From NCBI RefSeq assembly GCF_036588685.1, contig NC_086376.1:79959630-80023629 (forward strand): DNA of 64,000 nt, given 5' to 3'. The position numbers and the translations under genes were made by a program. Each line of letters begins with the position of its first letter. The stretch's first letter is position 1. This stretch comes from Mytilus trossulus. Lineage: Eukaryota. This document shows, one piece after another, positions 3,401 through 60,250 of the stretch. Under the pieces are notes generated by a model. It made no database searches. It saw nothing but the letters and a program-made list of their open reading frames with translations, and was not told the origin of the DNA.

Positions 3401-6400
3401 AATGATTTTTTTTTCTAATATAGGATTTCGCTATATTTTTTCATAAATGAACTTTATTATATACTTAAAAGAAAAATGAAATAAAAAGAAGGGGTCACCG
3501 TTCATTTCAGCTAAAATCTGCCTCTGGAAGAAGCATACATTTGTCCTTTTATTCTGTTGAACTAATAGGAGAAAAAGAGGAAATAAAAAAATAAAAAAAT
3601 AACCTAATATAAGAAACCGCTCAAATTTTACAATAATTTAGTTTATGTACAGCTTATTTGAAAACAATAATAAAAAATATAGGTCACCGATGAGTTAAAA
3701 AAGAAATTTCAAATTAAAGACCAAAAAATGGCATTTTTGCACCAAAGGGAGATAATTTGGAACTTTTTCAATTTTTAAAGACATCTGGGGCCAAACCAAA
3801 TCATTTTTTGGGGTTGTTTTTTGTACCATATCATAAAGTAACAGCTAATAGTGTAATAAATAAAATTTGTAATGATAAAAAAAATAAAGGTTTAATCTTT
3901 GCTAAAATTTTGTACCCACGAGCCACCTTAATATCTTTTAAAGTAAATATGAATTTTGAATTTATAGAAAACCTATATTTATCTTTGTTATAATTTTGGA
4001 AAATATTTCAATTACATACCTCATCTATGTCTGTACAGTGGGTACCATTTCCCTCGAAACCAGGCGGACAGTTGCCACAAATATATCCATCTGTGATATC
4101 ATCGCATGTTGCACCAGGAAAACAAGGACTAGGACTGGAACTGCAAGTAACAGGAAGTGACATACAGCCATTAATTGTCCCGTTTCCAGTCATCCCACTT
4201 GGACACGCTCCGCACTGGAAACCATCCTCTGTATTTGTACACACAGATCCTTCAAAACATGGCTGGGACGAGCACGTAATAATTATTGTGGCACATTCGT
4301 TTTTCAAACCAGTTCCGGTTTTACCAGATGGACACGCACCACATGTAAATCCAGTCTCTGTTTCAGAGCATTCTACTCCGTCATCACAAGGTTCTGAACT
4401 ACATGATGGCATGCATCCATCCCTTTCACCGTTACCTTTCATTCCTTCTGGGCAAGCGCTGCATTCATATCCATCCTTTGTGTCATTGCACAGAACTCCC
4501 TCAAAGCATGGATTTGAATTGCAACCAATAATAATCTTTTTGCAGTTGTCTTTGCTTCCATTTCCGGTTAACCCGATTGGGCAGTGCCCACATATATGTC
4601 CTGATTTTGTATCTGTACATGATACATTGTCAAAACATGGATATTTATCACATTTTATTATAGGTAACTTGCATCCGTTTTTTGTTCCATCGCCTTCCAT
4701 TCCGGACGGGCATTTCCCACATTTATAGCCTTTCCTGGTATTTGTGCATAAGACACCTTTAAAATTCAAAAAAAATATTACACAAAACACGTCAACTATC
4801 AATGGATGGAATCGATCTTTCGTAAAAAAAATTGTTTTACTATATCATATTTAATTGATATATGCAAAATTGAAAATGGAAATGGGGAATGTGTCAAAGA
4901 GACAACAACCCGACCAAATATAAAAAAAACAGCAGAAGGTCACCAACAAGTCTTCAATGTAGCGAGAAATTCCCGCAACCGGAAGCGTCCTCCAGCTGGC
5001 CCCTAAACAAATATATACTAGTTCAGTAATAATGAACGCCATACTAATTTCCAAATTGTACGCAAGAAACTAAAATTAAAATAAAACAAGACTAACAAAG
5101 GCCAGAGGCTCCTGACTTGGGACAGGCGCAAAAATGCGGCGGGGTTAAACATGTTTGTGAGATCTCAACCCTCCCCCTATACCTCTAACCAATGTAGAAA
5201 AGTAAACGCATAACAATACGTACATTAAAATTCAGTTCAAGAGAAGTCCGAGTCTGATGTCAGAAGATGTAACCAAAGAAAATAAACAAAATGACAATAA
5301 TACATAAATAACAACAGACTACTAGCAGTTAACTGACATGCCAGCTCCAGACTTCAATTAAACTGACTGAAAGATTAGGATTTCATCATATGAACATCAG
5401 GCACAATCCTTCCCGTTAGGGGTTTAGTATCATACCATTATAACATATATGAGAAGAACATAACCCATGTGAATGTTTTATATGTCTTTTACCACTTTGT
5501 TTTAATTGCTTTGTTCTTTTATTTTATGTTTACCTCTTTACAATTCTTTTTTTTTTATATTTTAACAAATACAGTGTTTGCCTCATTCAGTTTGATAAAC
5601 TGATCATAGATACCAGGTTTGAAATTGTGTACGCCAGACACGTGGTTCGTCTTCAAATGACCCCGCAGATGCCCGAATTAAAAATGCTAGATAAAGTACA
5701 AATTTAAGGACCCATAACTTTGAAAGGTTTGCAAAATTTAAAGTTTTGTAACCAGTAAATTTGTAATTATGACCATATAAATGATACTTCATGTCATCAC
5801 ATTAGTTCTGACTGACTATTGGGCTGGTGATACTGTAGAGGACTAAACCTCCACCGTGCAGCAGTTGAATCGATCCAGTATGGCTGTAAACACAAGCAGT
5901 TGTCTCCAAATAAAATACCTTAGGTGTATATCAAGAAAACATTTCAGAGACAAGAGCCTGTGTTTTATTATTATAAATAAACTCATCAGTGATGTCAAAA
6001 TTATATTTTGGGTGGTTCTGTGTCTTGAAACATTAGTATTTCTATAAAAGAAACAATAACTACTAGAAAAAAAGGTGGAAAAAATCCCGATTTCTAAAAA
6101 AGAAAATAACATGTGATCATCCTGTGTTCTCATCTTTTTTTTTTTGCAGTGATTTTTCTCATTTTAGTCAATACATGACTTTTATTTTGTTCGTTCCTTT
6201 ATATTTTAAAAACACTGATTCACTCCTGTTCTTGGTACAATATTTTGAGTTCATTGTACGTGTCATTTTTCGTTTCAAAATAAGTAAATCATGTACCTTT
6301 AAAACAAGGCTGCAGTTTACAGTTAGGCCGCAAAAAACACTTTTTACCATTTCCTTTGAAACCTGGCGGACATTTTCCACATTTAAAACCTCTCTTTGTG

Positions 6401-9400
6401 TTTTTACAGGACACTCCCTTGGAGCATGGATTATCAGCACATGTTAACTTCTTTAAAATAAGCTGGTCCCGTGGAGCTAAAATAATTACAGGAAAAACTG
6501 AGGTGTTTTATGAAGTCTAATTTACATATCTCTATATAATCCTGTTTATATGTGGTATATTTAAACTAAGCTGCACGGTTACTCTGGTACGATGATGTTC
6601 CATGCAAAAAATTGTCCGATTATGTTTTACTATAACAACCGTGCTTACCTTAACATAATATATACAATATACTGAGTCTGGGTCGTGGCTTCAAACTCCA
6701 GATTGAACAGAGACAGTTTAGAAGGGAAATAGTGTTCAACTGTTACATTTGTAATACTAATTATTTAATGGTTACTCAGCAATAGTTCCGTGTTAACAAC
6801 TTCTTAAAATTCAACAGAAAGTACAAGTAATTTTCGTTTCTGTGCATGTTGCATTGTCGTTTGTTTTTGGTTACATATCAGTGTTTCTGTTTCGTTATTT
6901 TCTCATTATGTTGTTGTGTTTTCTTCGGTACTAGTACTTGTTTGTAATCAAAATTTGATTTCTCTGAACCGATTTATGACTTTTGAACAGCGGTATACCA
7001 CTGTTGCCTTTATTTATATGAAACTGACTGACACAAAACTCTCTATAAAATATTGCTATTTTTCAGGTATTCAAAAACGCTATGTCTACTCACCTCGCTC
7101 CGAAAGTACAGTACACATATCACATTTGTTGATGATTTCCCGAAGAGATCGCGTTTCAGTAGCCTAAAATGGATATTTTGCAAGATGGAGATAGTCTGCT
7201 AACTTGATTCGCTCAATATGTTCATACTAACACATACCCAAAAATAATATTCCTATTAGTAATAATAGTTATCAATAGTACCAGGACTATAATTTAGTAC
7301 GCCAGACGCGCGTTTCGTCTACATAACCTCATCAATGACGCTCATATCAAAATATTTAAGTACAAAGTTGAAGCGTATTGAGGATCCAAAATTCCAAATA
7401 GTTATCAAAAGTACCAGGATTATAATTTTATACGCCAGACGCGCGTTTCGTCTACATAAGACTCATCAGTGACGCTCAGATCAAAATAGTTAAAAAGCCA
7501 AATAAATACAAAGTTGAAGAGCATTGAGGATCCAAAATTCCAAAAAGTTGTGTCAAATACGGCTAAGGTTATCTACTCCTGGGGTAAGAAAAACCTTAGT
7601 TTTTCTAAAAATTCACAGTTTTGTAAACAGAAAATTTATAAAAAGGACCATATAATTGATATTCATGTCAACACCGAAGTGCTGACTACTGGGCTGGTGA
7701 TACCCTCGGGGACGAAACGTCCAAAAAGTTGTGCCAAATACGGCTAAGGTTATCTATGCCTGGGATAAGAAAATCCTTAGTTTTTCGAAAAATTTGTAAA
7801 CAGAAAATTTTAAAAAATGTCCACATTATTGATATTCATATTAACACCGAAATGTTGACTACTGGGCTGGTGTTACCCTCGAGGACGAACCGTTCACCAG
7901 CAGTAGCATCGACCCAGTGATGTAAATAGTAATCAAAAGTACCAGGATTAACAGTTATGAATTGATAATCAAGTAATTTGGTTATTATAAACTTTTATTT
8001 ATGCATTTTTCATAAGAAATACACTTAAAATGGTCTCGCTGATTTATGAAAGGAACTGTAAAGTGATATATCGACCTAGTGTATGAAGAAATGTTATAAC
8101 GAACAATGTAGCTTTAAGCAAAAACTTTAAATATGATTTCTGATCATCAGGCGACACCAAAATTATAGATTTGTGCCTCATAGTTTAACGGTCACTGGAC
8201 TAGTCTTATCATTGAATGTATAATAAAATGTTGATGAAAAGTAAAACAACAAAAATACCGAACTCCAAGGAATACTCACAACGGAAAGACCCTAGTCAAA
8301 TGACAAAATCTAAAGTTCAAACCCATCGAACGAATGGACAACAACTGTCATTTTCTGTGAAACCTCTCACTTGTATGACAGTCGCATAAAATTCCATTAT
8401 ATTGACAACGATTTTGAACAAAACATACAGACTCAACAGTTTCAATTCTGTAAAAAACGTTTCAAGTTCATAAAAAGAAAGAGCCCAGCTAGATTTATGT
8501 TAGGAACAAAATGTTAACATCGATTGTGATACCACTCCGGTCTTATAATGAATATCTAAACGCAAGACAAGAAACACTCAAAACATTGTACTTAGAAAGT
8601 ACATGTTCATATTTAATTTGCCGAAAATGTTTGTGGTCTCGTATTTACAGATCAATCAATGCACGTGGGAAATCAGATCATTAATGATGTAAATATATGC
8701 GTATAGTTTTAAGTATTGACAATCTAGATTGTAAATACAATCAAACCTGCTTTTTAATTTCCTCTTGTAGTGATTTCACTGAAGTTGTCAACTCTTTCAA
8801 AGCATCTGTCAGCAGATTGTTGACATCTTGAACTAAAAAAAAAGAATATGAAAATCACTATTGTCAACTATAAATACAAGTGAATAAGAGTGCGCGAGTC
8901 TCCAATTAACATGAATGACACCAATGCCTTTCTGTCTCCGGCCCATATAAAAAAGATGTGATATGATTGCCAATGAGACAACTATCCATAAGAGACCAAA
9001 TGACACATATAGGTCACCACACGGCCTTCAACAATGAACAAAGCCCATGCCTCATAGTCAGACATAAAAGGCCCCGAAATAACAAATGTAAAAAAATTCA
9101 AACGAGGAAACTAACGGTCGAATTTATGTACAAAATATAAACGAATTGTCGTTTGTTGATGTGTTGCATCAACAAACGACTATCATTAAATTAACAGTCA
9201 ATTTCCTTTCAACCATCAACCATGCATCTTAAACCAGTGCATATTAAACCTTGTCATTTGATTTCTTTTGCAGAGACTGATATACTTTCAATACTTACCA
9301 CACTAGTCAATGGACAAAACTGAATGCAACCGTATGGAAATCAACGAGGAGCGAAAAGTGAATATCATGAACACATAATTAAACTTGGCAGAATTTTAAA

Positions 9401-22927: not shown

Positions 22928-25900
22928 ATGCCCGAAAACTTTGACGAGGCCAACGATTTGAACAAGACTCTAAATGACAAAAAAATAAATAAATTTGTCG
23001 AATTCAAACTGGAGGAGCCTGTTTACTGGTTATTGTGTGGTCTTCCTGACGATTTTCTTATGACGGACACTCTGTCCCCTTCGGTCGCTTCCATGCTGGG
23101 ACAAGTTACTGAAGATGGTGACAGCATTATTACCAGTTTAAAGACGGAACTCCTTGACGTAGATGTCGATGTCGGTATTTATGTTGATCAGGTAACTATA
23201 TGAGGATGAAATAAGAAATTAAATTTGTAAATATCAATTCACTACTATAGAAGAATTTTGTCAACAGTTTTAGTTCTAAGATCACCCTTTTTGCCATCTC
23301 GTCCGATGACAGGTGATAATGATATTATTTCTTCTGTTCTGAGAAGCAGCAATTTTGAAACTCCAAAATTGAAAAGATTATTAAATGTATATATATATTA
23401 ATAAAATTATTTTGTCAGAAAAATAGTATTGGAATAAGAATATAATTGGCGATTCAGAACGTTAATTGTTTTATGATTTTTTGCCTGAACATTTTTCTGA
23501 ATAAAATTCAGAAATTTATAAATTTTATGTAGTATGTATTTGCAATGTTCCAAAATAAAAATTGAGACCTATAAAACTTTCGATTTCATTTATTTATATG
23601 ACATTTATGCGCATGCAGCGTAAAACAAACCCCAATAAATCAATATGTATGTGTATATTACTTATATTTTCATAATCAACAATTAAAAAATCGAAGACCT
23701 CCGCACGTGTTAGAGGTTAATATTATTCACAATTTTCTGATTCAAAGTCATAAATGAATCCCTTGTTGTCCGAGATGATATGCACGACTTGTCCTTTCCC
23801 GAAATTTTCTTTCACAGGCAATCAGTGTTCTAGGTTTTAAATTAAATCAAATGAAAACGTGTCAGATATTTTTCAAGAAAATTTGGCACGAGTTTATTTT
23901 GTGCCAATCAGTATATAGTTTATGGAGTTATAAAAACTAGTTTATAGACTGGCATTTCATTTAAAGTTCAATTAGTAAATACATTTTATGGAAACAGACA
24001 TTTCTTTCAACTTTAATTCTTAGAACATTTTTCTCCAATCTTTTTTTTCTGCCATTTATTCCCTTTAATCTTTTTAATTTAGTATCACATGATTTTCTGT
24101 TCCTTATTTTTTTCCCTAATTTTCTGTTTTCGTATTTTTCTGTCTTGTGACTCTTTTTTGTCTATGTTTTTGCCTCTTTTTCTACCATCTTTTCTGCAAT
24201 TTTTGCTTACAATTCTAAATAAGAGTCTAAAATCGCATACACACACTCCATAAGTTGTTATATAAAACAGATGTGGTATGACTGCCAATGAGACAACTCT
24301 CCTCAATAGACCAAAATGACACTGAAATTAAAAACAAGGTCACCGTACACCTTCAACAATCGAGCAAAACCCATACCGCATAGTCAGCAATTTAAGGCCC
24401 GGAAATGACAATGCTAACAAAGTTTACTTTTCTACATTGGCTAAATGTACAGGGGGAGGGTTGAGATCTCATAAACATGTTTAACCCCGCCGCATTTTTG
24501 CGCCTGTCTCAAGTCAGGAGCCTCTGGTCTTTGTTAGTCTTGTACTATTTTAATTTTAGTTTCTTGTGTACAATTTGGAAATTAGTATGGCGTTCATTAT
24601 CACTGAACTAGTATTTATTTGTGATGGAGCCAGCTGAAGGACGCCTCCGGGCGCGGGAATTTCTCGTTACATTGAAGACCTGTTGGTGACCTTCTGCTGT
24701 TGTTTTTTCTATGGTCGTTGTTGTCTCTTTGATACATTCCCCATTTCCATTCTCAATTTTATTTTTATGTAACATAAACGAAAAACAACCACTGAATTAC
24801 AGGCATCTGACTTTGGACAGGCACATACATGCAAAATGTGGCGGGGATTAAGATGTTAGTGGAATGACATGTTAACGGGCATACTTTCAAACCTATCTCT
24901 CATGACCAATTATAAAACTGTATAGAAAGTTTGGGAGAATAACCAACAAAGCAACATTATTATTAGACTAAGATAATAGCCAATTTGAGTGAAAAAAGTC
25001 CCTATTATAGACGTCGCAGACAGCCTCCCACCTTTTTTCACCTAAAGAAAAGATTTCAGACTAGAGGACCAATAATATATCACTGTCATTAGTAAACTAC
25101 ATATAGAAATTTTATTAAAAAAAACCTGTGGAAGACAGGTTCGAATATTTATGATACAACCTCAGGTTTTAATGTAACCACTCCTTTGGAAGAATTCAAT
25201 GTACATATCGGCATCTAGAAAACAAGGATTTATGTGGTATACTATAAATCATTGATGGAAACAATCATGTGAAAAAATATACTTTTGTGATATCTGTGAC
25301 ATTTTAAACCAAAGGAGTAGGTCCGGTAAGGACCGATTTTGGCCTCAAATTTCAGTTTCATCTGACGAAAGATTTTGACCACTTTTTAAACACTTAAGTG
25401 TCTATTTCATTTGATTCAATTATTTTTTGTGAAAGATTTTAACTCATTAAGTCATAAAAAATGATCCTATTCAAGCTTAAATATGAAAAACCTACCAAAT
25501 ATGCGAAAAAATGTCACTTTTCAGATAGTTTTTGTCAAATATGAAAGTGGCCGCATCCGTGTTCATCCTCAATCTTTATATATGTTATGTATTATCATCA
25601 AATACAACTTCCATTTAAATATTTTGGATGAACACGAATGCGGCCACTTTCGTTTTACACGGAAACCGTCTTAAATTTAACTAAAATGCTTGAATTTTGA
25701 TGATTTCAGTAATTTAGCATGACTTAATGGTGCTAGTTCTCAATATATGTGCATTGCATTGCCAAAAACAGCCAATATTTATGTAGCAGAACCATTCTAC
25801 TATCCAATAAATAACTAAAAGTTTACATTTTCAGAATTTTGTAAAACTGCTATATTTTGGGGCCAAAAAGGGCTCTTACCGGACCTACTCCTTTGGCCAT

Positions 25901-38985: not shown

Positions 38986-41900
38986 TCACATAACATTACA
39001 TCCACGTCCTTTACGACTGCTTTTTCGATGTTTGCTTACGTAGTTGCCACTGATTGGCGAATGTTTGTCTCCTGCTGACGAAGACGGAGAAGGGGTTAAA
39101 CCAGGGATATATATATATGTCGACGTTTGCTCTGGAAAGATACATACAAGTGAAGTTAGATTATATTTCTAGATTAATAAATGGTGGTTATGTAAAAATT
39201 GACCTGTATTCAAAATTTCAGATAAAACGATTTGTTTTGCAAACTTAAACACTATAGTATAAACTTTCATGTGTGTTAATTATTTTGATATAAGTGAATA
39301 CTGCAACCTTTCTGGAAAATCTAAAACTGATAAATAAACGCTTGCTGTCATTGATATGATGAGAGAACACTTTTTAATTAGATGTTTTAATTGAAAAAAA
39401 ACATGCTTACTTTGTGTTGGATTGTTGTATTGTTTCCATTTGTCAGTTTCAGAGTTGTAAATATACTGTGGTATAATCGTATGGTCCTGTTCAAAGTTCC
39501 ACCAACTAAAGTTGAACTTTTTCTATAAAATAAATAAGAAAAGGTCAAAAATACTTAACGGAGCGGTACATTACAGACTCTTTCAAACGTAGTACTCTCA
39601 CATCTTTCTTACAATTCTGTCAACAAGTATTGATTCTTTTATTTTGCAAAAACAATCCAAACTGACAGTCACACAAAACTTCAAAACCCATAAAAATATG
39701 TTTGTATGACAACGTAAGGAAAGCTATGCAGTTACCGCCAGTTATTGTGTTAACACTTTTACTGTGTTTGTCTCACACAAAATAGAAGTAAATATTCTAC
39801 TATTATGTTTAAGACAAATTTTCAAAAATTCAACCTGTAATGAATGCTCAGTTGTTAAATGGACAGATGGTTCATTTCTGATTCCAGGTTTTATTTTATA
39901 TCACAGTCCTCTCTCCTATCTGTTTTCCCCTATTTTCTCTTCCCTCGTCCTACTTTCTTTCGGCAATCTTTTATTACCCTGTCCGTCCCTCATTTGAAAA
40001 AAAAAAAAATTTACCAAATAACTGGGCGTGTCCTCCACTTTACTTTCTTCTGATGGTTTCGTATTTTCCAGTTGTTTCATGAGAACTTCGGTTTCTTCTG
40101 TTAGTTTACCTTCTTGTTTTAATTCTTCAGTGAATGCCTCTAACTGTTCCTGGTTCGACTCCTTGTAACACACTGTAATATAAACACAACCAATAATCAA
40201 TAGAGTATTCCAACATTCCTCATTCATTCCATATTCTTGGGGAGGGGAAGAGAAAGATGGATTTTTCCGGATTGTATTTTCTTCTGTTGCAATGCATGCT
40301 TACTATTCCCTGCATTTTGTGATGCAAAATATTCATTCACATCCTGTTTCTGCAAGGTTATTTATATTCAGAATTAAATATGTTTTTTTTTAATCACAAT
40401 CCCTCTCCAGAAATCAATTGGTCGTTTCTGTTTCTTCATTTTTAACTTCACTGTGTACTTTTTGTTCCTTTTTCTGCAAGACTTTACCTTAATGTCGTAA
40501 CCCCTTTATATAATTTCGCTTCGTTAAATTGAAAACTCATTTGACTAGATATTATAGATGATTTCATCTTTATTCTGATAACTGATTGTTATATAAAATT
40601 GAGAATGGAAATGGGGAATGTGTCAAAGAGACAACAACCCGACCATAGAACAGACAACAGCAGAAGGTCACCAACAGGTCTGCAATGCAGCGAAAAATTC
40701 CCGAACCCGGAGGCGTCCTTCAGCTGGCCTTCCTGATATCAGAGTTCTCGAGTATTGTGGTCATATTTGCCTGTTACATTAACGAATAAATACCCGGACA
40801 ACAAATAGGGGTTGAGATTCTTACTAACGTCATCTCCCATACAATAATATCAAGATCAGTACAACATGATGAGATAAGGACAATGACAAGCAAAATCATA
40901 TACAACAATGATGGACATGTAAAAACACAAATAATTTAGCTAATAAATTCATTTGCGAACTTGTTTTTATGAATAAATTATCACAATTTATATAAAAACC
41001 ACAGCCAGACCATAGCCACGTTCAACGCAATAGCCCCATTCAATATATGCTCCCAGTAATGGCATGCATGCGCATGTTTAAATTTCACCCTAAAAGTATT
41101 CATACTAACAGAAAATAACATTGCAATGTATAATCATTTTAATGGTACGTACCTCCAAGAAACATTTCTGTAATTAAACTGAAGTTAGCTAATCTAAGAA
41201 GGCATCCGCCAGTACGGTCTGCTAACTCTTCATAAAACTTCTTGGCGTTTCCTTCTCCACTATTGCAAAATACACCATAAACCTAAAGAGATATGCATAA
41301 CACGTATTTTTAACGAAGAACTTTATTATTTCTGCTTATTTCGGTTGCTTTATCATAATTTTACCCAAAAGGACAAGCTTACATGAGATTCTATTTCTAT
41401 ATTTTCTGGTTTCTTTAGTCTGTACATTTTAATTGGTAATTCATTTGGTCAATGTTTTAATCCTTTTTATTTCAGGAAATATTAAAATCAACTTCACATT
41501 TACTATGTTCATCTGGCCCAAGACCACTTTGACATTTTGCTATCACTTTACATCCTTATCCAAAACTCTAGAACGAATTAAAAATACTTATGAGTAAAGC
41601 AGAGTTTTGCCTTCAACACGGTATCTTGAAAACTATAATATATAAGCAGTACAATGGTAGTCAAGGTAAGACATATTAGTACAGCAATTTCAATATGATC
41701 TCTATAATACATCTACTGTAGGAGTTATCGGTATAAAATAGAAAACAGCAATTATAAGGAACTGAAACATGGGGTCTGGGTTTTTTTAATGAACCTTTTA
41801 TCCCCGATTTTCAAACAAATTTTCAGTAGACACATTATTATCTGTTGAGTGATTCACGCTCCTTGTGGTTTCTAGTTTATATATCCAGATGTAGTCCTAG

Positions 41901-44900
41901 TTTGTTCTGGTAATGATACTAATCTGCCAATTTTCATATCACCCAATCACGTTTCTCGCACCCTAAGTATATGGACAAGAGTATAGTATATAATTGGCAT
42001 ACCTTAACTCCCATCCCCTTTAAGACATCTAGTTCTGTGTGCCAGTTGATGTTCTGGTCTGTATAAGATGGTGGATGTGGTTCGCAATCTCCAATAACTA
42101 CCAAAGCTTTGGCGGAATCTTCTGACCAGTCCAGCTGTTGAGCTTTGTGTAATGCCCACTCATAACACTGCAATAGAAAATATTATGGAATTGACAATTC
42201 ATTCCATTAAAACTGTTATATATATATTTTTTCGGGGGTGATGACGTGTGTTGATAAGTATGGAATGTTCGTTGGATAGGTCATCATCTTTGGGTTTCTT
42301 TTAACTTTTTTACCATACAATTTAAAATTGAACTTGAATGATTGAAGACTTCATGCAAGGTTTTCTTGAAATCATAAAGAGCTATTACAGCCAGCTTAAA
42401 GCTTAAACAACACATATGTTGCAAGGACAAACTGTTCGTTGTGTTAAAAACTTGTTATTTAGACTTCTTTTTTCGAGGGTTGCCTCATCACCAATCGTAT
42501 CACATCATCGTATCAAAGTGTTAATTTTACGTCTTATTTTTCAAACGCTCAACGCGAGATAACTCATTTTTAAACCACATTACCTCGGGTGAATCGCCTC
42601 CACCTGTTGATGGGGTACTGGAAGCAAAGTCAACCAGCTGTTGAACGTCTGTTGTTAGGTCCTGAATCTTGATGACGTAGTTATCATAATCACAATAATC
42701 ACCGTGGGCCATAATTCCAATTTTTATATTTGGTATGTCTCTTAAAAGCCGTTGACATGTTTCTTTTAATTTTGTCCTCACCTACAACCCGGATATTTTA
42801 TGATTACTAGTAATATAACAAGCAGAGAGAAATAATCACAAAATTAAGAATTTATTTTAAGGAATTCTAACTGATTTTATTATAGACTGTTAAATTTACT
42901 TTTGTTATGGACATGCTAAATTTTGCACATTTATTTTGAAACATTTGAATATTTTAATTGCAATAGCTGGTGTTAACATTTTTACATTTTACTGCAACAA
43001 TATAGAAATATTATTCGAATGTAGAAATACCATTTTATAAACCAACATTATTTTTTTTATTTGTCAACCCCATCCACCCCTAAAAAAAACAACTTATCTG
43101 ATCACATAAACTAAAGCAGCCTTACTTACACTCCCAAGATATTGACTCATGCTGCCAGTTGTGTCAAAACAAAACACAACTTCTACATTCTTTCCATTTG
43201 TCTCGAAACTTGAGAGGACGGCATCTTTCAAATCATCATCTATAGCTTTGGGATCTGTATCTTGAGCTGGGTCTAATAAAATAAAAATTAAATCAATAGA
43301 ATAAAATGAAAACAGGAACTTTGCTTCAAAGGTTCAGGGTTGATTTGTAAAACTTGTTAAACTGTGGTTTAATAAGAACATACACCAAACACCAGAACGT
43401 TAGTGTCTTCGTTTTTCCCATATCAAAATTAGTAGTCATGCTGCAGTTTATACTCTTAGGTAAATGCACTGGACAGTTATTAATGTGAATTTTACTTTTG
43501 CCACATATGGTCTAGATCTGCAACGGGGTGAACTGGATAAATCCCAACACAGTTTGTGGTTGCTCTAAGTTTGGTCTTCTGAAATTAATTGCTAAATCGC
43601 CTTTTTTACTTTTGACATAATTTGATAATCAATCAAACATTTTCTGCACGATAGGTCTAGCTCCAAACAACTCGAGTCTTGAAAAAACTATTTGAGTTTA
43701 TAACGGTCAACCATTTCTTAGATATGTCCCCCCTTTTTAAACTTGACAAAGGCATAGTTTAAGGTAAATAGAAGAAGCGAAATATAATTGTTAAATACAT
43801 AACAACCCTGACAGGTACAAGAAAAACAATAATTTTAAAATAACGTCTCAAATAGTGGTCGCAGTTACTGATGACAAGCTCATAGTATTAGAAAAAAACC
43901 GTCATGTCGATGAGAAATTACATTGTCCAACACTTGAATATCAACGACTGTAGTAAAACACGATCCCCCTTATAAAATCACGCCCAAATTTTATTCTTGT
44001 TTCAAATAACCAATCTTCTAACCCTGATCACAAGTCTACTAACCATATAATTCGCAAGTCTATCAACGAGTGTGCTAAAATACCCCTCCTTATAAAAATC
44101 ACACACAAACACCAAGTGCATAACTCTCGGTAATGACCTCTCTAGATTCGCTAGAGTGTTGGGATCAGTGGCGGACCCAGGGGAGAGTTCCAGGGGTTGG
44201 AACCCCCTTTTTTTTGACAATCAATGCATTCCGCCCCAGGGGATTAACTCCAACAAAGAGTAACAAGAAATAACTCCTACCTGATTCTGTTCAATCGTCT
44301 GCTTTGTCACCGAATGTCACTTGTATAAAGAGTAACAAGAAATAATTCCTACCTGATTCTGTTCTATCTTCTGCTTTGTCACCGAAAGTCACTTCTATAA
44401 CACTTTCCTCTCTAATACTTGTTTCATATAGTGGTGTGTTACATGGACGATAAACAGTGCCTGAGATTTTGAAGGACTGAAGAAAATATTTATAAAATTT
44501 GAAACTTTATAGTAGATTTTAATGTACAACTTAATAAATTGCATGTTTTGATTAATGTATTGTTTAAAAAAAATTATCCAATAGTAATTCTATCAACGAT
44601 AAAGTCACTTCATGAAAAAGTCAATTCCATTTGATTATATCAATGAAATAAGTCCATTACAATTTTACTTATGCTTATATCAATAATATTTTTCATAATA
44701 CCAGGCTTATAATTTGATACGCCAGATGCGCGTTTCGTCTTCATAAGAATTATCAGTGACGTTCAGATCTTTTAATACTTGTAAAGCCATACAAATACAA
44801 AGTTGAACAGCACTGAGGACCTTACAATAAGATTTTGTTTATTTTAGGGGTTAATAAAAATAAATTATTTGTCATGTTGTAGACATTATAATTTTCTATT

Positions 44901-45896
44901 TTTCCTGTTAAACTTTCATTCTGTAAATGGAAATAAATTATTGTCGTGTGTACACGTACCTTCACTGTTTTAGGAGAAACAATCTCTAGTCGTTCAACCA
45001 CAGATTTAAAATCTTCTAATGTACTAATGTTCTGTATATCCACTGGCGCGGAACCTCCTCCAACTACTTTAGCATACACTTTGATATCTCTTGGAATTAC
45101 GAACTGTGGATGAAATATAACGCATATATATTTGAAGATAACTTAAGGTTAATGTTGAAATGCTATATTGAAAAACGATAAGTGGCAAGGCAAATTACTT
45201 GCATTTGTTCGCAGTGCCAAATATAAAAGTATATTTAAAAGTGTTAACTCAAAGCGGTATATATGGGCTTTGCTCATTGTTATAAGCCATATGATGTCAT
45301 TTGGTCTCTTGTTGCAATTATACCCCATCTTCTGGTTTTCTATTAAATCCGTTACCAACAATATGTTTGTAAAATTTTTCATCGAAGAATGTCTCTTACC
45401 AAAGGTTACAGCTTTACCTTCACCAAAACAATATCTTGTTCAGGATGTCTTTGTATATATGTATACATATTTTTGGGGGTAAAATTTGCTGTGCTTTCCT
45501 GAGCCATTAAATTAATGAATTAATTAAAATATCAATGAATTTTTAGGTATAAAAACACAAAAAATGTAAATCTGCAAAAGAAATTAAATGTAATACATCC
45601 CACAATTAAGTGTATTCCTGTGAGCATATCAAATATAAACAAAAAATAAAAAAAGAATTACATATATATACCTCTGCTTTCAGTATAGTTTCTGGACAAA
45701 TTCCGAGGAATCCGATTGTTTTAGATTTATCAAGAAATTTTCCTTGGTACTTCACTCTTACTCTCCCGGGGATAATTTCTTCTTCTTTTGCAATCTGTTC
45801 AATAATTCTTTTTACTTGTTCCGTGGGTAATAATTTCAAAACTGAAGTACGACCTGTCGGTAATTTCACATAAACATCAACTAAAGGAGTTGCCAT
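38986..45896 (-). CDS. Di-ubiquitin-like + VWA (MIDAS) + polybasic CaaX protein, copy 1 (514 aa)
   Basis: Exons 45672-45896, 44960-45103, 44353-44476, 43130-43272, 42584-42781, 42003-42167, 41153-41282, 40015-40172, 39411-39522, 38986-39131; 1545 nt, all GT-AG, phases consistent. Ubl1 VYVKLPTGRT...YQGKFLDKSKTIGFLGI; Ubl2 VYAKVVGG...PLYETSIREESVIEV; VWA VVFCFDTTGSM / GGGDSPE / LVVIGD; C-terminus KHRKSSRKGRGCNVM*. Confidence 0.9.
44257..44400 (-). repeat. 72-bp tandem duplication of the exon-3 end and donor site
   Basis: aagagtaacaagaaataa(c/t)tcctacctgattctgttc...gtcactt(g/c)tata occurs twice; donors at 44351-44352 and 44279-44280. Confidence 0.9.
44697..44822 (-). mobile_element. Truncated family B copy with a degenerate hammerhead (44718-44764)
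   Basis: Minus strand: AACGUCA CUGAUAA UUC-UUAUGAA-GAC GAAA CGCGC AUC UGGCGU (G8A change). Confidence 0.7.
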
Positions 45897-46477
45897 TTTC
45901 TCAGTGATATTTAACCGTGTACTAAGGAATTATAGTGTATAATATATATTAAACTGAATACTTTGTTATACTAACTTGTTTATATACTATAGCGACTGAA
46001 AGATTTATTCTATATTTATTGTCCAATGAAATATCTCATAATAAAATCTTAAAATATCCTGTTCTATTATTAGACGATACGGTGTACAAAAATCGATTTG
46101 TTAGCATACTATTTATATTGATATTTTAGAATTAATTTTAAAATGGTAGGAGAATCAGTTTTTGTAAATACAAGCAAGGGCGGCCAAGTCGGAAAAGTAA
46201 ACCCTCCGCATTTAATTAGTATCCCAAAAGGAATGAGGGCCCGGGGTTTCAAATCGCAAGCACCTGTAGGTTAAACAAAAGTAGATACTGTAATGATTGT
46301 TAAGACGACGAAGTCTTCGGGATATAAATAAAAATTTCTATAACTATATATTTTATTATATGTATTTATAAAACAAATACTTTAACACAGACAAAGCCAA
46401 AACACACACACACACACACAGGCAAAATAATAATAAAAAAAACCACCATTAATTTGTTCATAGTACACGCATCATCA

Positions 46478-53128: not shown

Positions 53129-56100
53129 TCACATTACATTACATCCACGTCTTTTCTTGTGACGATCTCCCCTAAATAAGCTACACTCAATCATTGGCGA
53201 ATTTGTGTCGCTTGATGTCAAAGTCGAAGGAGGGACTGAAAAAAAAAGATATTGAATACATTAGAGAAGTTTGATATACTGACCCCTCTATGTGGATTTG
53301 TAAATGGTGGTGATGTAAACACTGACCTATGTTCAAAATTCCAGAAGTCGATTTCACAAAACAACTTACGACTTAGATTAATCGTAAGTATGCTGATTTG
53401 TTCATGACTTAAGACCAATCTTAGTCGTAAGTTTTTTTTGTGAATTTATATATACACTCTTCCTCCCTTATAAGAGAATGTATTAGATGTCGTAATTTTT
53501 TGTATAATTAAATACAAACATTAAAACAATGAAGGGAAAAGTTGAAACTGACCATGTAAATATTTCTATCATTGATATGATTAGATGTTTTTTTGAGAAA
53601 AAAATTCTTACTTTGTGTTGGATTGTTGTATTGTTTCCATTTGTCAGTTTCAGAGTTGTAACTATACTGTGGTGTTTTAGTATGGTCCTTTTTAAAGTTC
53701 CACCAATCAAATTTGTATTTTTTCTGAAAAATACAAAAAAGTAAACATTTCTTTTCAAGCAGATTGACATTACTTCGCCTTCTGTTTCAAAGAGATTGCC
53801 AAAACGCAGCGGTACTTCGCCGACTATTTAGAACAGATTGTCATTATGCAGCAGAACTCGCCGACTGTTCCAAAAATTCTGTCAACAAAATTTGAATTAT
53901 TTATTCAAAATCAAAATATGCTGACACGACACTTTTTCAGTTACCAACGAGTTACAAAATTTGCTACTAGTTTATATTAAATAAAAACATTAAACATGCT
54001 CAGTGGATGAATGAACGCATTCTCTTTTTCACCCGCTTTTCCCGATTTTCCAATTTCCAGTTTCAGTGTTACATCCATCCCTGATTAAAAAAAGATTTAC
54101 CAAGTAACTGGGAGTGCCCTTCGTTTTTCTTTCTTCTGATGGTTTCGTATTTTCCAGTTGTTTCATGAGGTCTTTGGTTTCTTCTGTTAGTTTACCTTCT
54201 AGTTTTAATTCTTCAGTGAATGCTTCCAACTGTTCCTGGTTCGACTCCTTGTAACACACTATAAAGGAGAGATAACCCATACAAAATACCCGTTGAAGTA
54301 TTTCGACGTTTGTCATTCTAAGGGGGCTAACATTTGTATTCTGGTTGGGGTAGTAGGATTCTTTTGGGATTGTCTTTTTATTTTCATTTATTGCTCCGCA
54401 TGCTAATTATTTTCTGCATTTTGTGTTTTTGTCAAATATGATTCAATGATTTACATATTTAAAAGCACAAATAATTTAAATGATTATATACTTTTAATAT
54501 ATATATATAATATATATATATAAACAAATGCACAGTCAGACCAGAGCCCCGTTCAATACTACTGCCATACAACATATTCCCCTGTCCTAGAATACATATG
54601 CATGTTAGTACTCGTTCATAAAGGCTTTTATAGCTACTAGTGAAAAACTCAGTTCAGTTGTTTAAATATTTTGATACGAATCAAATATCATTGTAATGTA
54701 TAATAATTTTAAAGTTATATACCTCCCAAAAACATTTCTGTAATTAAACTGAAATTGGCTAATCTAAGAAGACATCCACCGGTACGGTCTGCTAATTCTT
54801 CATAAAACTTCTCGGCATTTCCTTCTGCACTATTGCAAAATACACCATAAACCTAGGGAGATATGCATAATAGGTATTAAAGTATATTTATTTGTTCAGC
54901 TTTTTCAGTCGCTTAATCAGTCTTTTACTAGAAAAAAGAAGACATGTTTTCAGGAAAAATCTACTTGAATACTATTTTTCTGGCTCTTCAATCAGTCAAT
55001 TTTAATTGCTATTTGATAATTTTTCTTTCGGTCATCTTTATCTCAAGAAATAAGTAAAACTTCACATTTTAGCTCATTTGGCGGAATGCCATTTTGAGCT
55101 TTTACTATTACTTCATGTACGTCTCAGAAACGTATGAACCAGTCAAACAAAACTTCTCAATCTAATTAAGATATTGGACTCTGATTTTGTTATGATGTAG
55201 TATAACGAAATCAGAGATCAATATTTTTAATTAGATTGAAAAATTCTTATCCTTATAGTATCAGGATTCGATTTCGTAAATTTTATACCGGTACATCAAA
55301 ATACGATGCTGACTATATTAATGATAAAACATTAAGGGAAAATACATGTAAGTCTTTTGTATATTAAAAAACACAATATGTACAGGATCAGTTTAAAGTC
55401 CTTTTTTTTTTATAGAAGAAGTTTCACTGTTCACTGACATCGGCAACCTCTGCAACCGGTCGTGTTGCATCTCGTTATCATCGTCATTCCAGTAACCAGT
55501 CATCCAGTTTCATATTAGACAAGAGCAGAGTATCTTATTATCGTACCTTAACCCCCATCCCTTTTAAGACGTCTAGTTCTGTGTGCCAGTTGATGTTCTG
55601 ATCTGTATAAGATGGTGGATGTGGCTCATGGTCTCCGATTACAACCAAAGCTTTGGCCGAATCTTCTGACCAGTCCAGTTGTTGAGCTTTATGTAATGCC
55701 CACTCATAACACTGAAAAAGAAAATACAATGAACTTGATTTATTGGCCTAAATATTAATTCATCTTAAATGCTTGGTTAAACATTGTAAATTGGTGTTTG
55801 TTTATGTTGGTTTTTTTTCTTTTTCGGGAGGGGTGTTATGGCAAGTGTGGAATTTTCGTTGGTAAGGTCTCCAAAGTTTTTGTTTTCTTAAGACTTTAAG
55901 GCCCCAAAATGTTTAAATGAGTTTGCGATTGGGACAATACATAAAATATGCAAGTTTTAAAAAAAAATGATCAAGAGTTGCAACCAACTCGCATGTGTGA
56001 TCAATTATAGATATTTTGCAAAGACAAACTGTTAGTTGGCATCACATACTTGACCTTAGTCTTTGTTAGATAACTTTCTTCTCATACTTGTCCTTAGTCT

Positions 56101-59100
56101 TTGTTAGATAGATGTCTCATCAGCAATCGTACAACCTCTGATTTATTCTTCATGTTCTTACATGTTATCATAATTGTGTGAAATAATCTCGAGGTTACTT
56201 TTAATTTGATTTAAACATTCAAAGCGAGATAACTCGTTTTTAAAACCATTTAAGTACCTCTGGAGCATCGCCTCCACTAGTTGATGACGTACTAGAAGCA
56301 AAATCTACCAGCTGTTGAACGTCTGATGTCAGGTCCTGAATCTTGATGACGTAGTTTTCATAATCAAAATAATCACCGTGAGCCATAATTCCAATTTTTA
56401 TATTTGGTATGTCTCTTAAAAGTTTTTGACAAGTTTCTTTTAATTTTTTCCTCACCTACAACCCAAACATTTTATGAATTACAAAGAGAAAAGAAACAAT
56501 TTAAAAAAAAAAAAACACGAATTTATTTTATTTGGAGAGAGGTAAAAAAAAAAATTGGTCAAGAAAATGCTCAATTCTGTATTTTTTTTTTATAAATATG
56601 AAAATTGAAATTGAAATATCTGGCACAGAAATTTTTGACTCTTCAACGCAAAGCAACAATAAATAGAAAAAAATGTAGTCTGCAGAAATGCCATCGTTTT
56701 CTTACTTTCTCAAGATATGGACTCATACTACCAGTTGTGTCAAAGGAGAACACGACTTCTACATTCTTTCCATTCGTCTCGAAACTTGAGAGAACGGCAT
56801 CTTTCAAATCATCATCAATAGCTGTGTGATCTGTATATTTGATTTGAAAAAAAATATTCATAGAATAAATTAAAAGGGAAACGGGAATTTTGCTTCAAAC
56901 GTTCAGAGTTATTTTGAAACGCTGTTTTAAAAAATCATACACCAACCAACAGCACTTTACAAATAATGTATTGTCTCTTTTTTCTTATTAAAATTGTTTG
57001 TAATGTTTTTTTAATCATATTGGTAACTGCTATGGACAGGTTTTACCTGGATTATAATTTTGAGATGTTCTAGATTTGTAAAGGGATATGAACTGCAATA
57101 ATCCCAACATACTGTTTCTGTACCAAGTTTGGTTTTCTAAAGTTTACTTTCATCATGTTTTATTTACTCAAAGTAAAATGAATTGAATGCAAGTAAACCA
57201 TTTAATAATAAATAATGTCCGCTCCAGATTACAATATGATAAACAAAACAATGTAAATATCAGCATGTTATATTTCGAAATGAACAAAACTTTACCAGTC
57301 TAGGCTTTAAGAAGTCGAGTGTTGGTAGTAAGTGTGATCTGTTAAAATGGTCCAACAATTTGTGGTAGTGTTTAATTTTCATACACATCGATCGAATAAT
57401 TAACTTTTTACAGAATTTCATAATTTCATGCACTCTGATATGTCGAGCTCAAATCACCTCGTTTCTCGAAACCTAAAGCACTTGGAACAAGATCTGCTAA
57501 ACCTTCCGAGGCACATGATATCACACAGGGGTGTTTTGATAGGGTTCCTGTTGCAATCTATAGTTCCCTATCTATAGTGTGCCTTGTAAACAGTTGTTTG
57601 TCAGTTGGTCATTTTTCGTTTTATTTTTTCCTGTTTGTCGTTGTAAATAAAACTGAGAATGATAAGGAGGAATATTGTCATAGAGACAACCTAACCAAAG
57701 AGCAGAAAACAGCAGAAGGTCACCAATGGGTCTTCAGCACAGCGAGAAAATCCTGCACCCCGAAGCGTGCTTCAGCTGGCCCTAAACAAAAATGTGTACT
57801 AGTTCATCGATAAAAGTTTGTTTTCGATTGATGAGTTTATATGTCCCTATTATGCTATGTTTCGTTTCTTCTTTGGAAAAGTATGTAATTACAACTATGG
57901 ACAAAGAAAGATAACTCAAATTTTTAAAGATGACTTAACAACGACATCATTGATTACATGATTCCTGCACCTTACAAAGGTGATTTTACTTGACAAAATA
58001 GCACCCTTTTGTAATTTGAATATCTGAGCATATATTTCATTGATTAATTGCTGGAAATGTTCATGGATGGGGTGAATAGAATGTTATGGTCAATGCACTA
58101 TATTTAGTGTATCTCAAAATTAGTAATAAACCTTGGAAGATTTAGATATCAAGGTAGTAACATGGGGTTTTGGTTGTATTTCTGCAATCTTTACCCAAAA
58201 ATAATGATTTATAACATTATGTCACATAACGCTCTCGGTTAGTAAAAGCAAGCTCATAAAACTTTAAAACATGTCGGTCTCCCACCTCTAAAAAAAGCAC
58301 GCACACAGACACACATGTGCAAAACTAAACAAAGCAAAATAACACGGACTTTTTATTCTCGTTTCAGATCACAAGGCTGTAAACCATTCATGCTTTTCCT
58401 GGACTCGACACAAGTTTTGGGGTTTACTTAAACAAAGATTTACAAGAAATCATACCTACCAGTTTCTGTTCTGTCGTAGATAGTCACTTCTATAACACTT
58501 TCCTCTCTAATACTTGTTTCATATAGTGGTGTGTTACATGGACGATAAACAGTGCCGGAGCTTTGGAAGGACTGAAGAGTAAAAATAAATAAATTTGAAA
58601 GTTTAGTAAATTTTAATATTCATAACTTCATGGAATGCTTTTTTTTTAATACAAATTCATTTTAGTACATTGTTGAAAAGGATTCTATCAATGGAAGTCA
58701 ATTAATAATGGCTATATCGATTAGACTTTGTTCATTTTAGATTAAAAAAAAGAAAAAAGAAACTATTTGTAGAAATTATATTTTTTTCTACCCCTCCCCC
58801 TCCCTCCACCCCCCTCCTTTAAATTTTCTTTCATATTCTAGAATTGAAATGACACTTACTTGCACTATTTTTGGAGACACAATCTCTAGACGTTCAACAA
58901 CAGCAGATTTCAAATCCTCTAATGTACTAATGTTCTGTATATCTATAGGAGCTGAACCTCCTCCATCTACTTTAGCATAAACTTTGATATCTCTTGGAAT
59001 TACGAACTGTGAATGACATATTACGCACATATTTGAAAACAAACAAAACGTGTATGCTGTAACATAATCGGTGTGAAGAGCTAGGGCCAATTTTCAAATT

Positions 59101-60250
59101 AAATGTTGCACTCGTAAGGTCAAATATTGAATCATTTAAATCTTTAAAAGTCCGAAATGTAAACTTGAAACCGTTTTCTACTAGTTACGTATATCTGAGA
59201 ATATCTAGCTAGATTAAAACAGATACCAGTCTTACTCCGCGACATCACTATCATCTTCTCTATCTTTTTATTCAGCATTACAGATATTTCTATGCTCTTT
59301 TATGGGCATTATGTTTTTCTGGTCTGTGCGTTCGTTCGTTCGTTCATCTGTCCCGCTTCAGGTTAAAGTTTTTGGTCAAGGTATTTTTTTATGAAGTTGA
59401 AGTCCAATCAACTTGAAGCTTAGTATGTATACATGTTCCTTATGATACGATTTTTCTGATTTTAATACCAAATTAGAGTTTTTAACCCATTTTCACGGTC
59501 CACTAAACATAGAAAATGATACTGCAGATGGGGCATCCGTGTACTGGGGACACATTCTTGTAGATGTATCAACTACTTTTGTTGTAAAACTAGATGAATA
59601 AGAACAAAAACACATTAAATAATTGAATTTGATATTTATGATTTTTTTTAAATACAACACAAATTAAAAAAATCTGAATATCATAGTATGTAATTATTCA
59701 ATACGTTTAAATAAAGCGCCCGTGGAAAAAAAACATTTCACAAAAAGTAAAAACACAAAAATACTGAACTCCGAGGAAAATTCAAAAAGGAAAGTCCAAA
59801 ATCAAAAGGCAAAATCAAAAGTCCATACACATCAAACGAATGGATAACAACTGTTATATTCCTGACTTGGTACAGGCATTTTCTAATGTAGAAAATGGTG
59901 GATTGAACCTGGTTTTGTAGCTAGCTAAACCAGGCTCTCACTTTTATGACAGTCGCATCAAATTCCATTACATAGTCAACGCAAGCGACTGTGGAAAAAA
60001 AAACAAAAAAGAATAAGATATATACCTCTGCTTTCAGTATAGTTTCTGGACGAATTCCGAGAAATCCGATTGCTTTAGATTTATCAAGAAATTTTCCTTG
60101 GTACTTCACTCTTACTCTCCCGGGGATAATTTCTTCTTCTTTTGCAATCTGTTCAATAATTCTTTTTACTTGTTCCGTGGGTAATAATTTCAAAACTGAA
60201 GTACGACCTGTCGGTAATTTCACATAAACATCAATTAACGGAGTCGCCAT
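53129..60250 (-). CDS. Di-ubiquitin-like + VWA (MIDAS) + polybasic CaaX protein, copy 2 (492 aa)
   Basis: Exons 60026-60250, 58860-59006, 58460-58571, 56706-56830, 56258-56455, 55547-55711, 54723-54852, 54101-54258, 53612-53723, 53129-53235; 1479 nt, phases consistent. VVFSFDTTGSM, GGDAPECYEWAL, LVVIGD; C-terminus RHKKRRGCNVM*. Confidence 0.9.
53353..53444. mobile_element. Mini fold-back element in intron 9 of copy 2
   Basis: ttcacaaaacaacttacgacttagatt / aatcttagtcgtaagttttttttgtgaa; not present in the homologous intron of copy 1. Confidence 0.7.
55157..55239. repeat. 83-bp hairpin
   Basis: tcaatctaattaagatattggactctgattttgttat / ataacgaaatcagagatcaatatttttaattagattga. Confidence 0.75.
59290..59562 (+). 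mobile_element. Family E element in intron 1 of copy 2
   Basis: tttatgggcattatg...(gttc)n...ggggcatccgtgtactggggacacattcttg. Confidence 0.65.

What the first reader, a model, noticed from the sequence alone, without database searches (positions are those of the whole stretch)
7265..7950. Retrozyme-like array with an intact hammerhead ribozyme, sense-oriented in a thrombospondin intron
Seen: a complete type I hammerhead core (7431-7477, minus strand) in a head-to-tail unit of about 355 nt, with a second mutated core 133 nt away. It lies about 270 nt upstream of the exon 6 acceptor, on the transcribed strand. Known: non-autonomous retrozymes with type I hammerheads that yield circular RNAs have been described in mussels, and palindromic minimal helix III motifs favour dimeric cleavage. 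Inference: the host pre-mRNA may be cleaved co-transcriptionally, or act as a source of retrozyme RNA.
Basis: partly seen in the sequence, partly recalled or inferred. Interest (0 to 1): 0.7.

Follow-up and report, generated by a model that had tools for sequence, protein, structure and literature searches.

The report
Nested mussel retrozyme in thrombospondin intron
The hammerhead ribozyme motif is really there on the transcribed strand of a thrombospondin intron, but it is one of about 9,500 identical motifs of a mussel repeat that very likely is the published retrozyme family, here a truncated young copy that likely jumped into an older decayed copy, and it is likely a near-neutral passenger.

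Summary
Ordinary. The type I hammerhead is real (Rfam Hammerhead_1, 7475-7432, minus strand; cut site 7438/7437), sense in intron 5 of a thrombospondin/COMP-like gene, 274 nt before exon 6. The same 44 nt occur 9,492 times in this genome, in a 355-nt repeat that fits the published Mytilus non-LTR retrozymes. The locus is not a tandem array. A young 5'-truncated copy (328 nt, 97% like the unit) sits between two colinear halves of an older copy (83-87%). The two cut sites are 133 nt apart, so no unit-length circle can come from here. In a sample of 160 loci, intact cores in introns were not depleted in sense orientation (9 sense : 9 antisense with Pfam support; 12:14 overall). At the published rate (~0.1/min) little pre-mRNA would be cut before exon 6 is transcribed. 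One local twist is predicted: the intact core folds more easily as a half-active double hammerhead on the damaged copy's site, so any cut may fall at 7305/7304. The scan has already reported such intronic copies several times on other DNA of this genome.

The parts
7720..7950 (-). Segment A: 5' part of an older retrozyme copy (unit positions 16-254, counted from the cut site); holds a diverged copy of the unit's 43-112 hairpin, no ribozyme core
   Evidence: 87% to a natural unit cut from L019; best match among 160 fetched loci 88%; fold of the hairpin copy
7396..7723 (-). Segment B: young, 5'-truncated copy (unit positions 70-355 plus 1-42), 328 nt, ending at the family's usual 3' end
   Evidence: 97% to the unit; best match among 160 loci 98%; both junction words occur once in the genome
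7432..7475 (-). Intact type I hammerhead: helix I 7475-7470 with 7437-7432; core 7469-7463; helix II 7462-7450; GAA 7449-7447; 2-bp helix III inside a self-complementary octamer 7446-7439; C17 at 7438; cut 7438/7437
   Evidence: Rfam Hammerhead_1, 33.0 bits, E 2.4e-4; sequence; 9,492 exact copies
7396..7437 (-). 42-nt tail after the cut site, ending where most copies of the family end
   Evidence: departures from the unit after +41: 1,332, after +42: 434, control after +36: 71
7264..7395 (-). Segment C: 3' part of the older copy (unit positions about 252-355 plus 1-41), 12-nt deletion, colinear with segment A
   Evidence: 83% to the unit; alignment
7299..7341 (-). Damaged second hammerhead: C3 to U at 7335, helix II 5' strand altered at 7328-7327; helix III, GUC site (7305/7304) and helix I 3' arm intact; predicted substrate for the intact core in a double hammerhead
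   Evidence: sequence; constrained folding
7164..8746 (-). Host intron 5 (1,583 nt, GT..AG) of a thrombospondin/COMP-like gene
   Evidence: tblastn of P0003; splice sites read
8747..8832 (-). Host coding exon 5 (likely coiled-coil region)
   Evidence: 93% to P0003 residues 263-292
7094..7163 (-). Host coding exon 6
   Evidence: 96% to P0003 residues 292-314

Best explanation
The locus holds a young, 5'-truncated copy of a very abundant 355-nt hammerhead-bearing repeat that likely inserted into an older, decayed copy of the same repeat in intron 5 of a thrombospondin gene, where it is likely a near-neutral passenger. Shown: three-part mosaic, one intact core, fixed 3' end of the family, no sense depletion in a sample of introns. 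Inferred origin: a retrotransposon reverse transcriptase began at the fixed site 42 nt past the ribozyme cut on a circular or multimeric retrozyme RNA, read back through the ribozyme and stopped after 328 nt, at a target that resembles the element's own 3' end. Inferred action: host transcription makes the ribozyme in sense. The monomer fold is weak, and once the damaged copy is transcribed the intact core is predicted to pair with that copy's GUC site (double hammerhead, cut 7305/7304). Either way cleavage is likely slower than splicing commitment, so few transcripts would be lost and no mobile RNA circle would be made.
For: 9,492 identical ribozymes; 355-nt period, 37.7% GC. A ends at unit 254 and C resumes at 244-252, both 83-88% like their best matches, while B is 97-98%. 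Both junctions are unique. The same young-in-old layout occurs at L141 (same unit position), L064 and L100; 5 of 160 loci continue into retrozyme sequence at the 3' end, against 3.0% retrozyme-derived background, so nesting is at chance level. Fixed 3' end: 1,332 and 434 against 71; 5' ends are spread over the unit and 106 of 160 copies are shorter than one unit. Intact cores in introns: 9 sense, 9 antisense among 27 Pfam-supported loci; 12:14 among 41. Published mussel monomer kobs ~0.1/min (PMC7229834) gives 2% cut in 12 s and 10% in 1 min. Slow intronic ribozymes were reported not to affect splicing (Fong 2009 as cited in PMC10919898).
Against: No cleavage or expression was measured. The orientation sample is small: 95% interval for the sense share 0.27-0.67, so mild selection is not excluded, and multi-core arrays were 0 sense to 3 antisense. 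Host strands come from my own exon calls, not from an annotation. Intronic hammerheads can lower mRNA: under 3-fold for N79/N107/N117, 13.6- to 20-fold for the engineered T3H48 (PMC11856399). If splicing of intron 5 takes 5-10 min and the 37 C rate held, 39-63% would be cut. The empty allele was not seen: contig mapping was swamped. No clear target-site duplication beyond a 3-11 nt overlap. Sequence identity to the published clones could not be checked.
Confidence: 0.82

Rival explanations
1. The ribozyme measurably attenuates the host gene: the 133-nt spacing lets the intact core form a double hammerhead within seconds and cut 141 nt before the acceptor quickly enough to abort a sizeable share of transcripts.
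For: Double fold favoured over the monomer by 3.1-8.3 kcal/mol in 30 of 30 contexts with equal numbers of forced pairs; dimeric constructs cleave much better than monomers in axolotl retrozymes (PMC7229834); intronic hammerheads can knock down genes (PMC11856399).
Against: Even the double fold lies 1-8 kcal/mol above the ensemble. The family lacks most loop 1-loop 2 tertiary contacts (PMC7229834). Exon 6 follows within 141-274 nt, against 9,931 nt for the CPEB3 ribozyme whose half-life matches its distance (PMC10919898). No sense depletion in the sample.
Confidence: 0.1
2. The locus is a source of retrozyme RNA: host transcription and two cuts release a circle.
For: Two GUC sites in sense; sequential cuts (first 7305/7304 by the double fold, then 7438/7437 by the monomer) would free a 133-nt piece with ligatable ends (inference).
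Against: The piece is 133 nt, not 355; it folds weakly as a circle (-14.4 kcal/mol against -71.4 for the unit) and lacks the 43-112 hairpin that follows the fixed 3' end. Religation would rebuild only the damaged core. No such joint was listed in the one RNA-guess run laid (contigs, weak test).
Confidence: 0.04
3. The mosaic arose by recombination or gene conversion between an old array and a young copy, or by template switches in one insertion, not by a second insertion.
For: Both junctions lie in short microhomologies (about 4 and 8 nt) and there is no long target-site duplication.
Against: B is out of register with A and C (starts at 70 after 254, ends at 42 before 252), ends exactly at the family's fixed 3' end, and the age contrast is sharp at both junctions; anchored duplications of 6 nt or more are rare in the family generally (9 of 88, shuffled 3.9 +/- 1.8).
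Confidence: 0.12

Closest known systems
Mytilus galloprovincialis non-LTR retrozymes (Cervera and de la Pena 2020, PMC7229834; main text read through the discussion, supplement not readable)
   Same: Type I hammerhead in a non-coding repeat of 350-390 bp, GC under 45-50%, thousands of copies, tandem arrays, mussel host (nearest host protein is from M. galloprovincialis, 91% over the large EGF exon)
   Different: This locus is a truncated copy nested in an older one, with one intact core and no full unit; 9,492 exact cores here against ~5,000 reported there; the sections read do not discuss introns or a fixed 3' end; identity to their clones untested
Penelope-like elements and their 30-40 bp tail (Frangieh et al. 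2024, PMC11167929, results read; Craig et al. 2021, PMC8557442, passages)
   Same: Fixed 3' end downstream of the hammerhead cut, 5' truncation, insertion into own copies, palindromic short helix III
   Different: No ORF; unit of 355 nt; the mobilising enzyme was not identified here
Intronic self-cleaving ribozymes with host effects: CPEB3 HDV-like ribozyme (PMC10919898, passages); conserved amniote intronic hammerheads (de la Pena and Garcia-Robles 2010, seen only as a reference)
   Same: Self-cleaving motif in sense inside an intron
   Different: Those are single-copy and conserved; this is a young repeat copy, and its rate and distance to the next exon do not match as they do for CPEB3
Dimeric (double) hammerheads of amphibian satellites and PLEs (PMC7229834; PMC6765202, passage)
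   Same: Self-complementary helix III lets two neighbouring motifs swap strands
   Different: Here only one core is intact, so the dimer would be half-active; the mussel monomer was reported to cleave without a tandem partner

Membership tests
Type I hammerhead ribozyme | Conserved core CUGANGA / GAAA / UH with three helices, open helix I | tested here: met
   Full-length Rfam Hammerhead_1 match, all pairs standard, 33.0 bits, one bit under the gathering score
Type I hammerhead ribozyme | Self-cleavage 3' of C17 | not testable with these tools
   Needs an in vitro assay; a mussel clone cleaved at ~0.1/min (PMC7229834)
Metazoan non-LTR retrozyme (mussel) | Short tandem unit (150-450 bp; 350-390 in mussel) with one type I hammerhead per unit | tested here: met
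   Family: 355-nt period, one core per unit. This locus holds only a partial unit
Metazoan non-LTR retrozyme (mussel) | Low GC, non-coding, thousands of dispersed copies | tested here: met
   37.7% GC; 9,492 exact cores on both strands; matches on all 14 largest contigs; no long ORF over 7264-7950 (longest listed 86 codons, output partly cut)
Metazoan non-LTR retrozyme (mussel) | Sequence identity to the published M. galloprovincialis clones | not testable with these tools
   Supplement too large to read; the GenBank records are in no collection offered here
Metazoan non-LTR retrozyme (mussel) | Expressed as linear and circular monomers | tested here: inconclusive
   One run guessed to be RNA holds 66 contigs at 99% or more to the stretch, family-level and not shown to be RNA; no raw reads offered
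Metazoan non-LTR retrozyme (mussel) | This locus can release a unit-length monomer (two active cores one unit apart) | tested here: not met
   Sites 133 nt apart, second core damaged; it is a truncated copy of the family, not a source array
Metazoan non-LTR retrozyme (mussel) | Target-site duplication when present | tested here: inconclusive
   3-11 nt overlap of A and C here; family: unanchored 7 nt or more 6 of 88 against 4.4 by chance; anchored 6 nt or more 9 of 88 against 3.9
Domesticated intronic ribozyme (CPEB3-like, amniote intronic hammerheads) | Single-copy, conserved at the orthologous site | tested here: not met
   Identical to 9,491 other copies and part of a young insertion; presence in other individuals unresolved
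Autonomous Penelope-like element | RT and GIY-YIG ORF | tested here: not met
   No such ORF in the 355-nt unit or at the locus

The most novel reading that the evidence does not exclude
A nested insertion has built a half-active double hammerhead: the young copy's intact core cuts the old, damaged copy's site 141 nt before the exon 6 acceptor fast enough to lower thrombospondin mRNA, so that damaged retrozyme copies act as cis substrates and stacking of insertions creates new intronic cut sites and 133-nt mini-circles.
Probability: 0.08. Interest if true: 0.5.

Novelty: already known. Interest (0 to 1): 0.17.

Why it matters
As a locus, little: it is one of very many. By extrapolation (12 of 160 sampled loci, times 1,766 counted ends) at least about 130 genes carry an intact core in sense within an intron. 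The useful by-products are general. A first small count finds no strong selection against sense-oriented mussel hammerheads in introns, which suggests they cut pre-mRNA too slowly to matter. The locus also offers a ready natural construct for testing half-active double-hammerhead cleavage. If the cut did lower host mRNA, polymorphic retrozyme insertions would be a widespread source of expression variation in mussels.

Tried and rejected
Presence or absence of segment B in other animals: DNA contigs of four runs at 90% likeness and of three DNA runs plus one RNA-guess run at 99% were swamped by other copies; the joint of an empty allele equals the ordinary unit sequence, so it cannot be told apart; no conclusion. 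One search does show the outer junctions of the old copy in run X1 (pieces 7004-7291 and 7939-8088) and the 3' one in run X3. Read ends at the cut site: no raw reads offered. Unconstrained folding does not return the hammerhead fold (z 0.05-2.1), and canonical array context does no better, so absolute fold probabilities were not used. Idea that both junctions are amplified family variants: rejected, each occurs once. Idea of preferential insertion into own copies: rejected, 5 of 160 against 3.0% background. Idea of sense bias from the 4 of 4 sense remnants in this window: not borne out in 41 loci. Search for a shared autonomous element upstream of 24 tail-only loci: no shared upstream sequence. 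Orientation count: 14 loci with a Pfam hit but uncertain intron status were left out (with them 13:14); 22 loci flanked by transposon-like ORFs were left out of the Pfam-free call; 119 of 160 loci got no host strand. Fong et al. 2009 is not held and is cited second-hand. Literature searches; no listed title or abstract start dealt with intron orientation of metazoan retrozymes, but only listings were seen for most. No direct source was found for the effect of C3U with G8; that it impairs cleavage is recalled, while C3G and G8C are shown inactive in PMC11167929.

Full report
Observation. Rfam matches Hammerhead_1 over the whole model at 7475-7432 on the minus strand (33.0 bits, gathering score 34, E 2.4e-4). 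From the sequence: helix I 7475-7470 with 7437-7432, core 7469-7463, a 3-bp helix II with a 7-nt loop, GAA, a 2-bp helix III inside a self-complementary octamer, and C17 at 7438. A second motif lies 133 nt downstream with C3 changed to U and the 5' strand of helix II altered, while its helix III, GUC site (7305/7304) and helix I 3' arm are intact.

Host gene. The large exon at 4023-4754 is 91% identical to a 1,258-residue Mytilus galloprovincialis protein with COMP, EGF, TSP_3 and TSP_C domains (P0003; Pfam hits). tblastn of that protein gives coding exons at about 17376-17317, 11974-11804, 11391-11176, 9962-9630, 8832-8747, 7163-7094, 6477-6295 and onwards, all on the minus strand. The element is in intron 5 (8746-7164, 1,583 nt), in sense; the cut is 1,309 nt after the donor and 274 nt before the acceptor.

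Family. The 44-nt ribozyme occurs 9,492 times without mismatch (4,804 forward, 4,688 reverse; reversed control 0). A DNA search gave 3,549 candidates, 39 scored, 103 matches, many in arrays of 355-nt period. A natural unit from L019 is 355 nt and 37.7% GC. This fits the mussel non-LTR retrozymes of Cervera and de la Pena 2020 (PMC7229834; main text read through the discussion): about 5,000 hammerheads in 350-390 bp repeats, abundant circular RNA, monomer kobs about 0.1/min at 37 C and 6 mM MgCl2, most loop-loop contacts absent. Their supplement could not be read, so identity to their clones is untested and may bear on family assignment.

Anatomy of this locus. Counting the unit from the cut site, the locus reads A (7950-7720, unit 16-254, 87%), B (7723-7396, unit 70-355 plus 1-42, 97%), C (7403-7264, unit 244-355 plus 1-41, 83%, 12-nt deletion). 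A and C are colinear and old, B is young and out of register. Both junction words occur once in the genome. I read this as a young copy inserted into an old one (inference). The same layout appears at L141, at the same unit position, and at L064 and L100. 5 of 160 loci run on into retrozyme sequence at the 3' end, against 3.0% retrozyme-derived background, so this is chance-level nesting. There is no complete young unit here, and the two cut sites are 133 nt apart.

How copies are made. Copies depart from the unit after +41 in 1,332 places and after +42 in 434, against 71 at a control position five bases earlier. In 160 loci chosen by this end (80 of the 100 listed and 80 of the 100, contigs C1-C3), 5' ends are spread over the unit, 106 of 160 are shorter than one unit, 100 hold an intact core and 68 exactly one. 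A fixed 3' end past the ribozyme with variable 5' truncation resembles internal initiation and the tail of Penelope-like elements (PMC11167929, results read). Reading back through the cut site requires a circular or uncut multimeric template (inference). Short target duplications are slightly in excess (anchored 6 nt or more: 9 of 88 young copies, shuffled 3.9 +/- 1.8). Earlier notes of this scan attribute mobilisation to Naiad elements through a hairpin just after the fixed end. I confirmed only that unit 43-112 folds as a stable hairpin (-31.0 kcal/mol) and that B lacks its first half; the Naiad link is untested here.

Is sense orientation special? I scored candidate exons in the 160 loci (method checked on the window), scanned 422 top candidates against Pfam and fixed host strands before looking at element strands. 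Among 27 loci with Pfam-supported intron status, intact cores were 9 sense and 9 antisense, copies without an intact core 6 and 3. A Pfam-free call on 31 loci agreed in 17 of 17 shared cases. The union of 41 gave 12:14 and 8:7. The 95% interval for the sense share is 0.27-0.67: strong purging is excluded, mild purging is not. Arrays with two or more cores were 0 sense to 3 antisense. Two other sense copies lie 86 and 224 nt before a candidate exon, so 274 nt is not unusual. 119 loci had no host strand.

What the ribozyme would do. With the hammerhead pairs forced, the monomer fold lies 5-9 kcal/mol above the ensemble at 37 C here and 5-10 in a canonical array, so this context is no worse than the usual one; the model lacks tertiary contacts and gives no rates. 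A double hammerhead in which B's core takes C's site is favoured over the monomer by 3.1-8.3 kcal/mol in 30 of 30 contexts. In that fold B's own site sits in C's damaged core. That one intact core suffices in a double hammerhead is recalled, not from a call. The prediction is that cleavage, if any, falls at 7305/7304 at least as readily as at 7438/7437. At 0.1/min, 2% of transcripts are cut in 12 s, 10% in 1 min and 39% in 5 min; at 0.01/min, which I assume is nearer to cold water and low Mg, 0.2-5%. For comparison, the CPEB3 ribozyme has a 2-3 min half-life and 9,931 nt to the next exon, and slow intronic ribozymes were reported to leave splicing unaffected (PMC10919898, passages). Against this, intronic hammerheads lowered mRNA up to 3-fold (N79, N107, N117) or 13.6- to 20-fold (engineered) in zebrafish (PMC11856399, passages). 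A double cut would free 133 nt that fold weakly and lack the hairpin, not a retrozyme monomer.

Reads. Only contigs were offered. The element is buried under other copies, with summed depth in the millions against about 40 in the flanks of run X1, and a second laying at 99% likeness did not resolve the junctions. Polymorphism and locus-specific cleavage remain open.

Verdict. A real motif in a known kind of element; a truncated, nested copy; sense orientation is ordinary; the source-of-circles reading fails on anatomy; a host effect is likely small. The scan's earlier notes list many such intronic copies in this genome (unchecked AI notes, not used as evidence). The one local prediction worth a bench test is the half-active double hammerhead. 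Interest 0.17.

Noticed in passing
window 5879-5733 and 5661-5603, minus strand: Old retrozyme remnants (75-78% to the unit) in intron 7 of the same thrombospondin gene, sense, core broken.
   Followed up: partly
window 16191-16033, minus strand: Old remnant (73%) in intron 1 of the gene, sense, core broken, ending at the family's +41 end.
   Followed up: partly
window 44819-44685, minus strand: Remnant (84%) between two candidate exons of a minus-strand gene with a ubiquitin-like domain, sense, G8 changed, ending at +41.
   Followed up: partly
L029 (G000:C1:10532000-10541999), near 5000: A 326-nt retrozyme copy with an intact core lies antisense in an intron of an RtcB tRNA ligase gene, the enzyme proposed to circularise retrozyme RNA.
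   Followed up: no
L141, 4785-5111 on the element strand: Independent-looking insertion of a young copy at the same unit position (244-251) of an old array; in L100 the target is an internal octamer identical to the element's 3' end, hinting at microhomology-assisted priming.
   Followed up: partly
G000:C1:269289-296241: A single array of about 27 kb with more than 70 exact ribozyme copies at 355-nt spacing.
   Followed up: no
window about 41000-46000 and 54000-60300, minus strand: Two near-identical sets of candidate exons (ubiquitin-like domain by Pfam, then a region that looks vWA-like from recall): a tandem gene duplication.
   Followed up: no
window 25522-25675: Long inverted repeat giving weak microRNA-family matches far below gathering scores; probably a small inverted-repeat element.
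   Followed up: no
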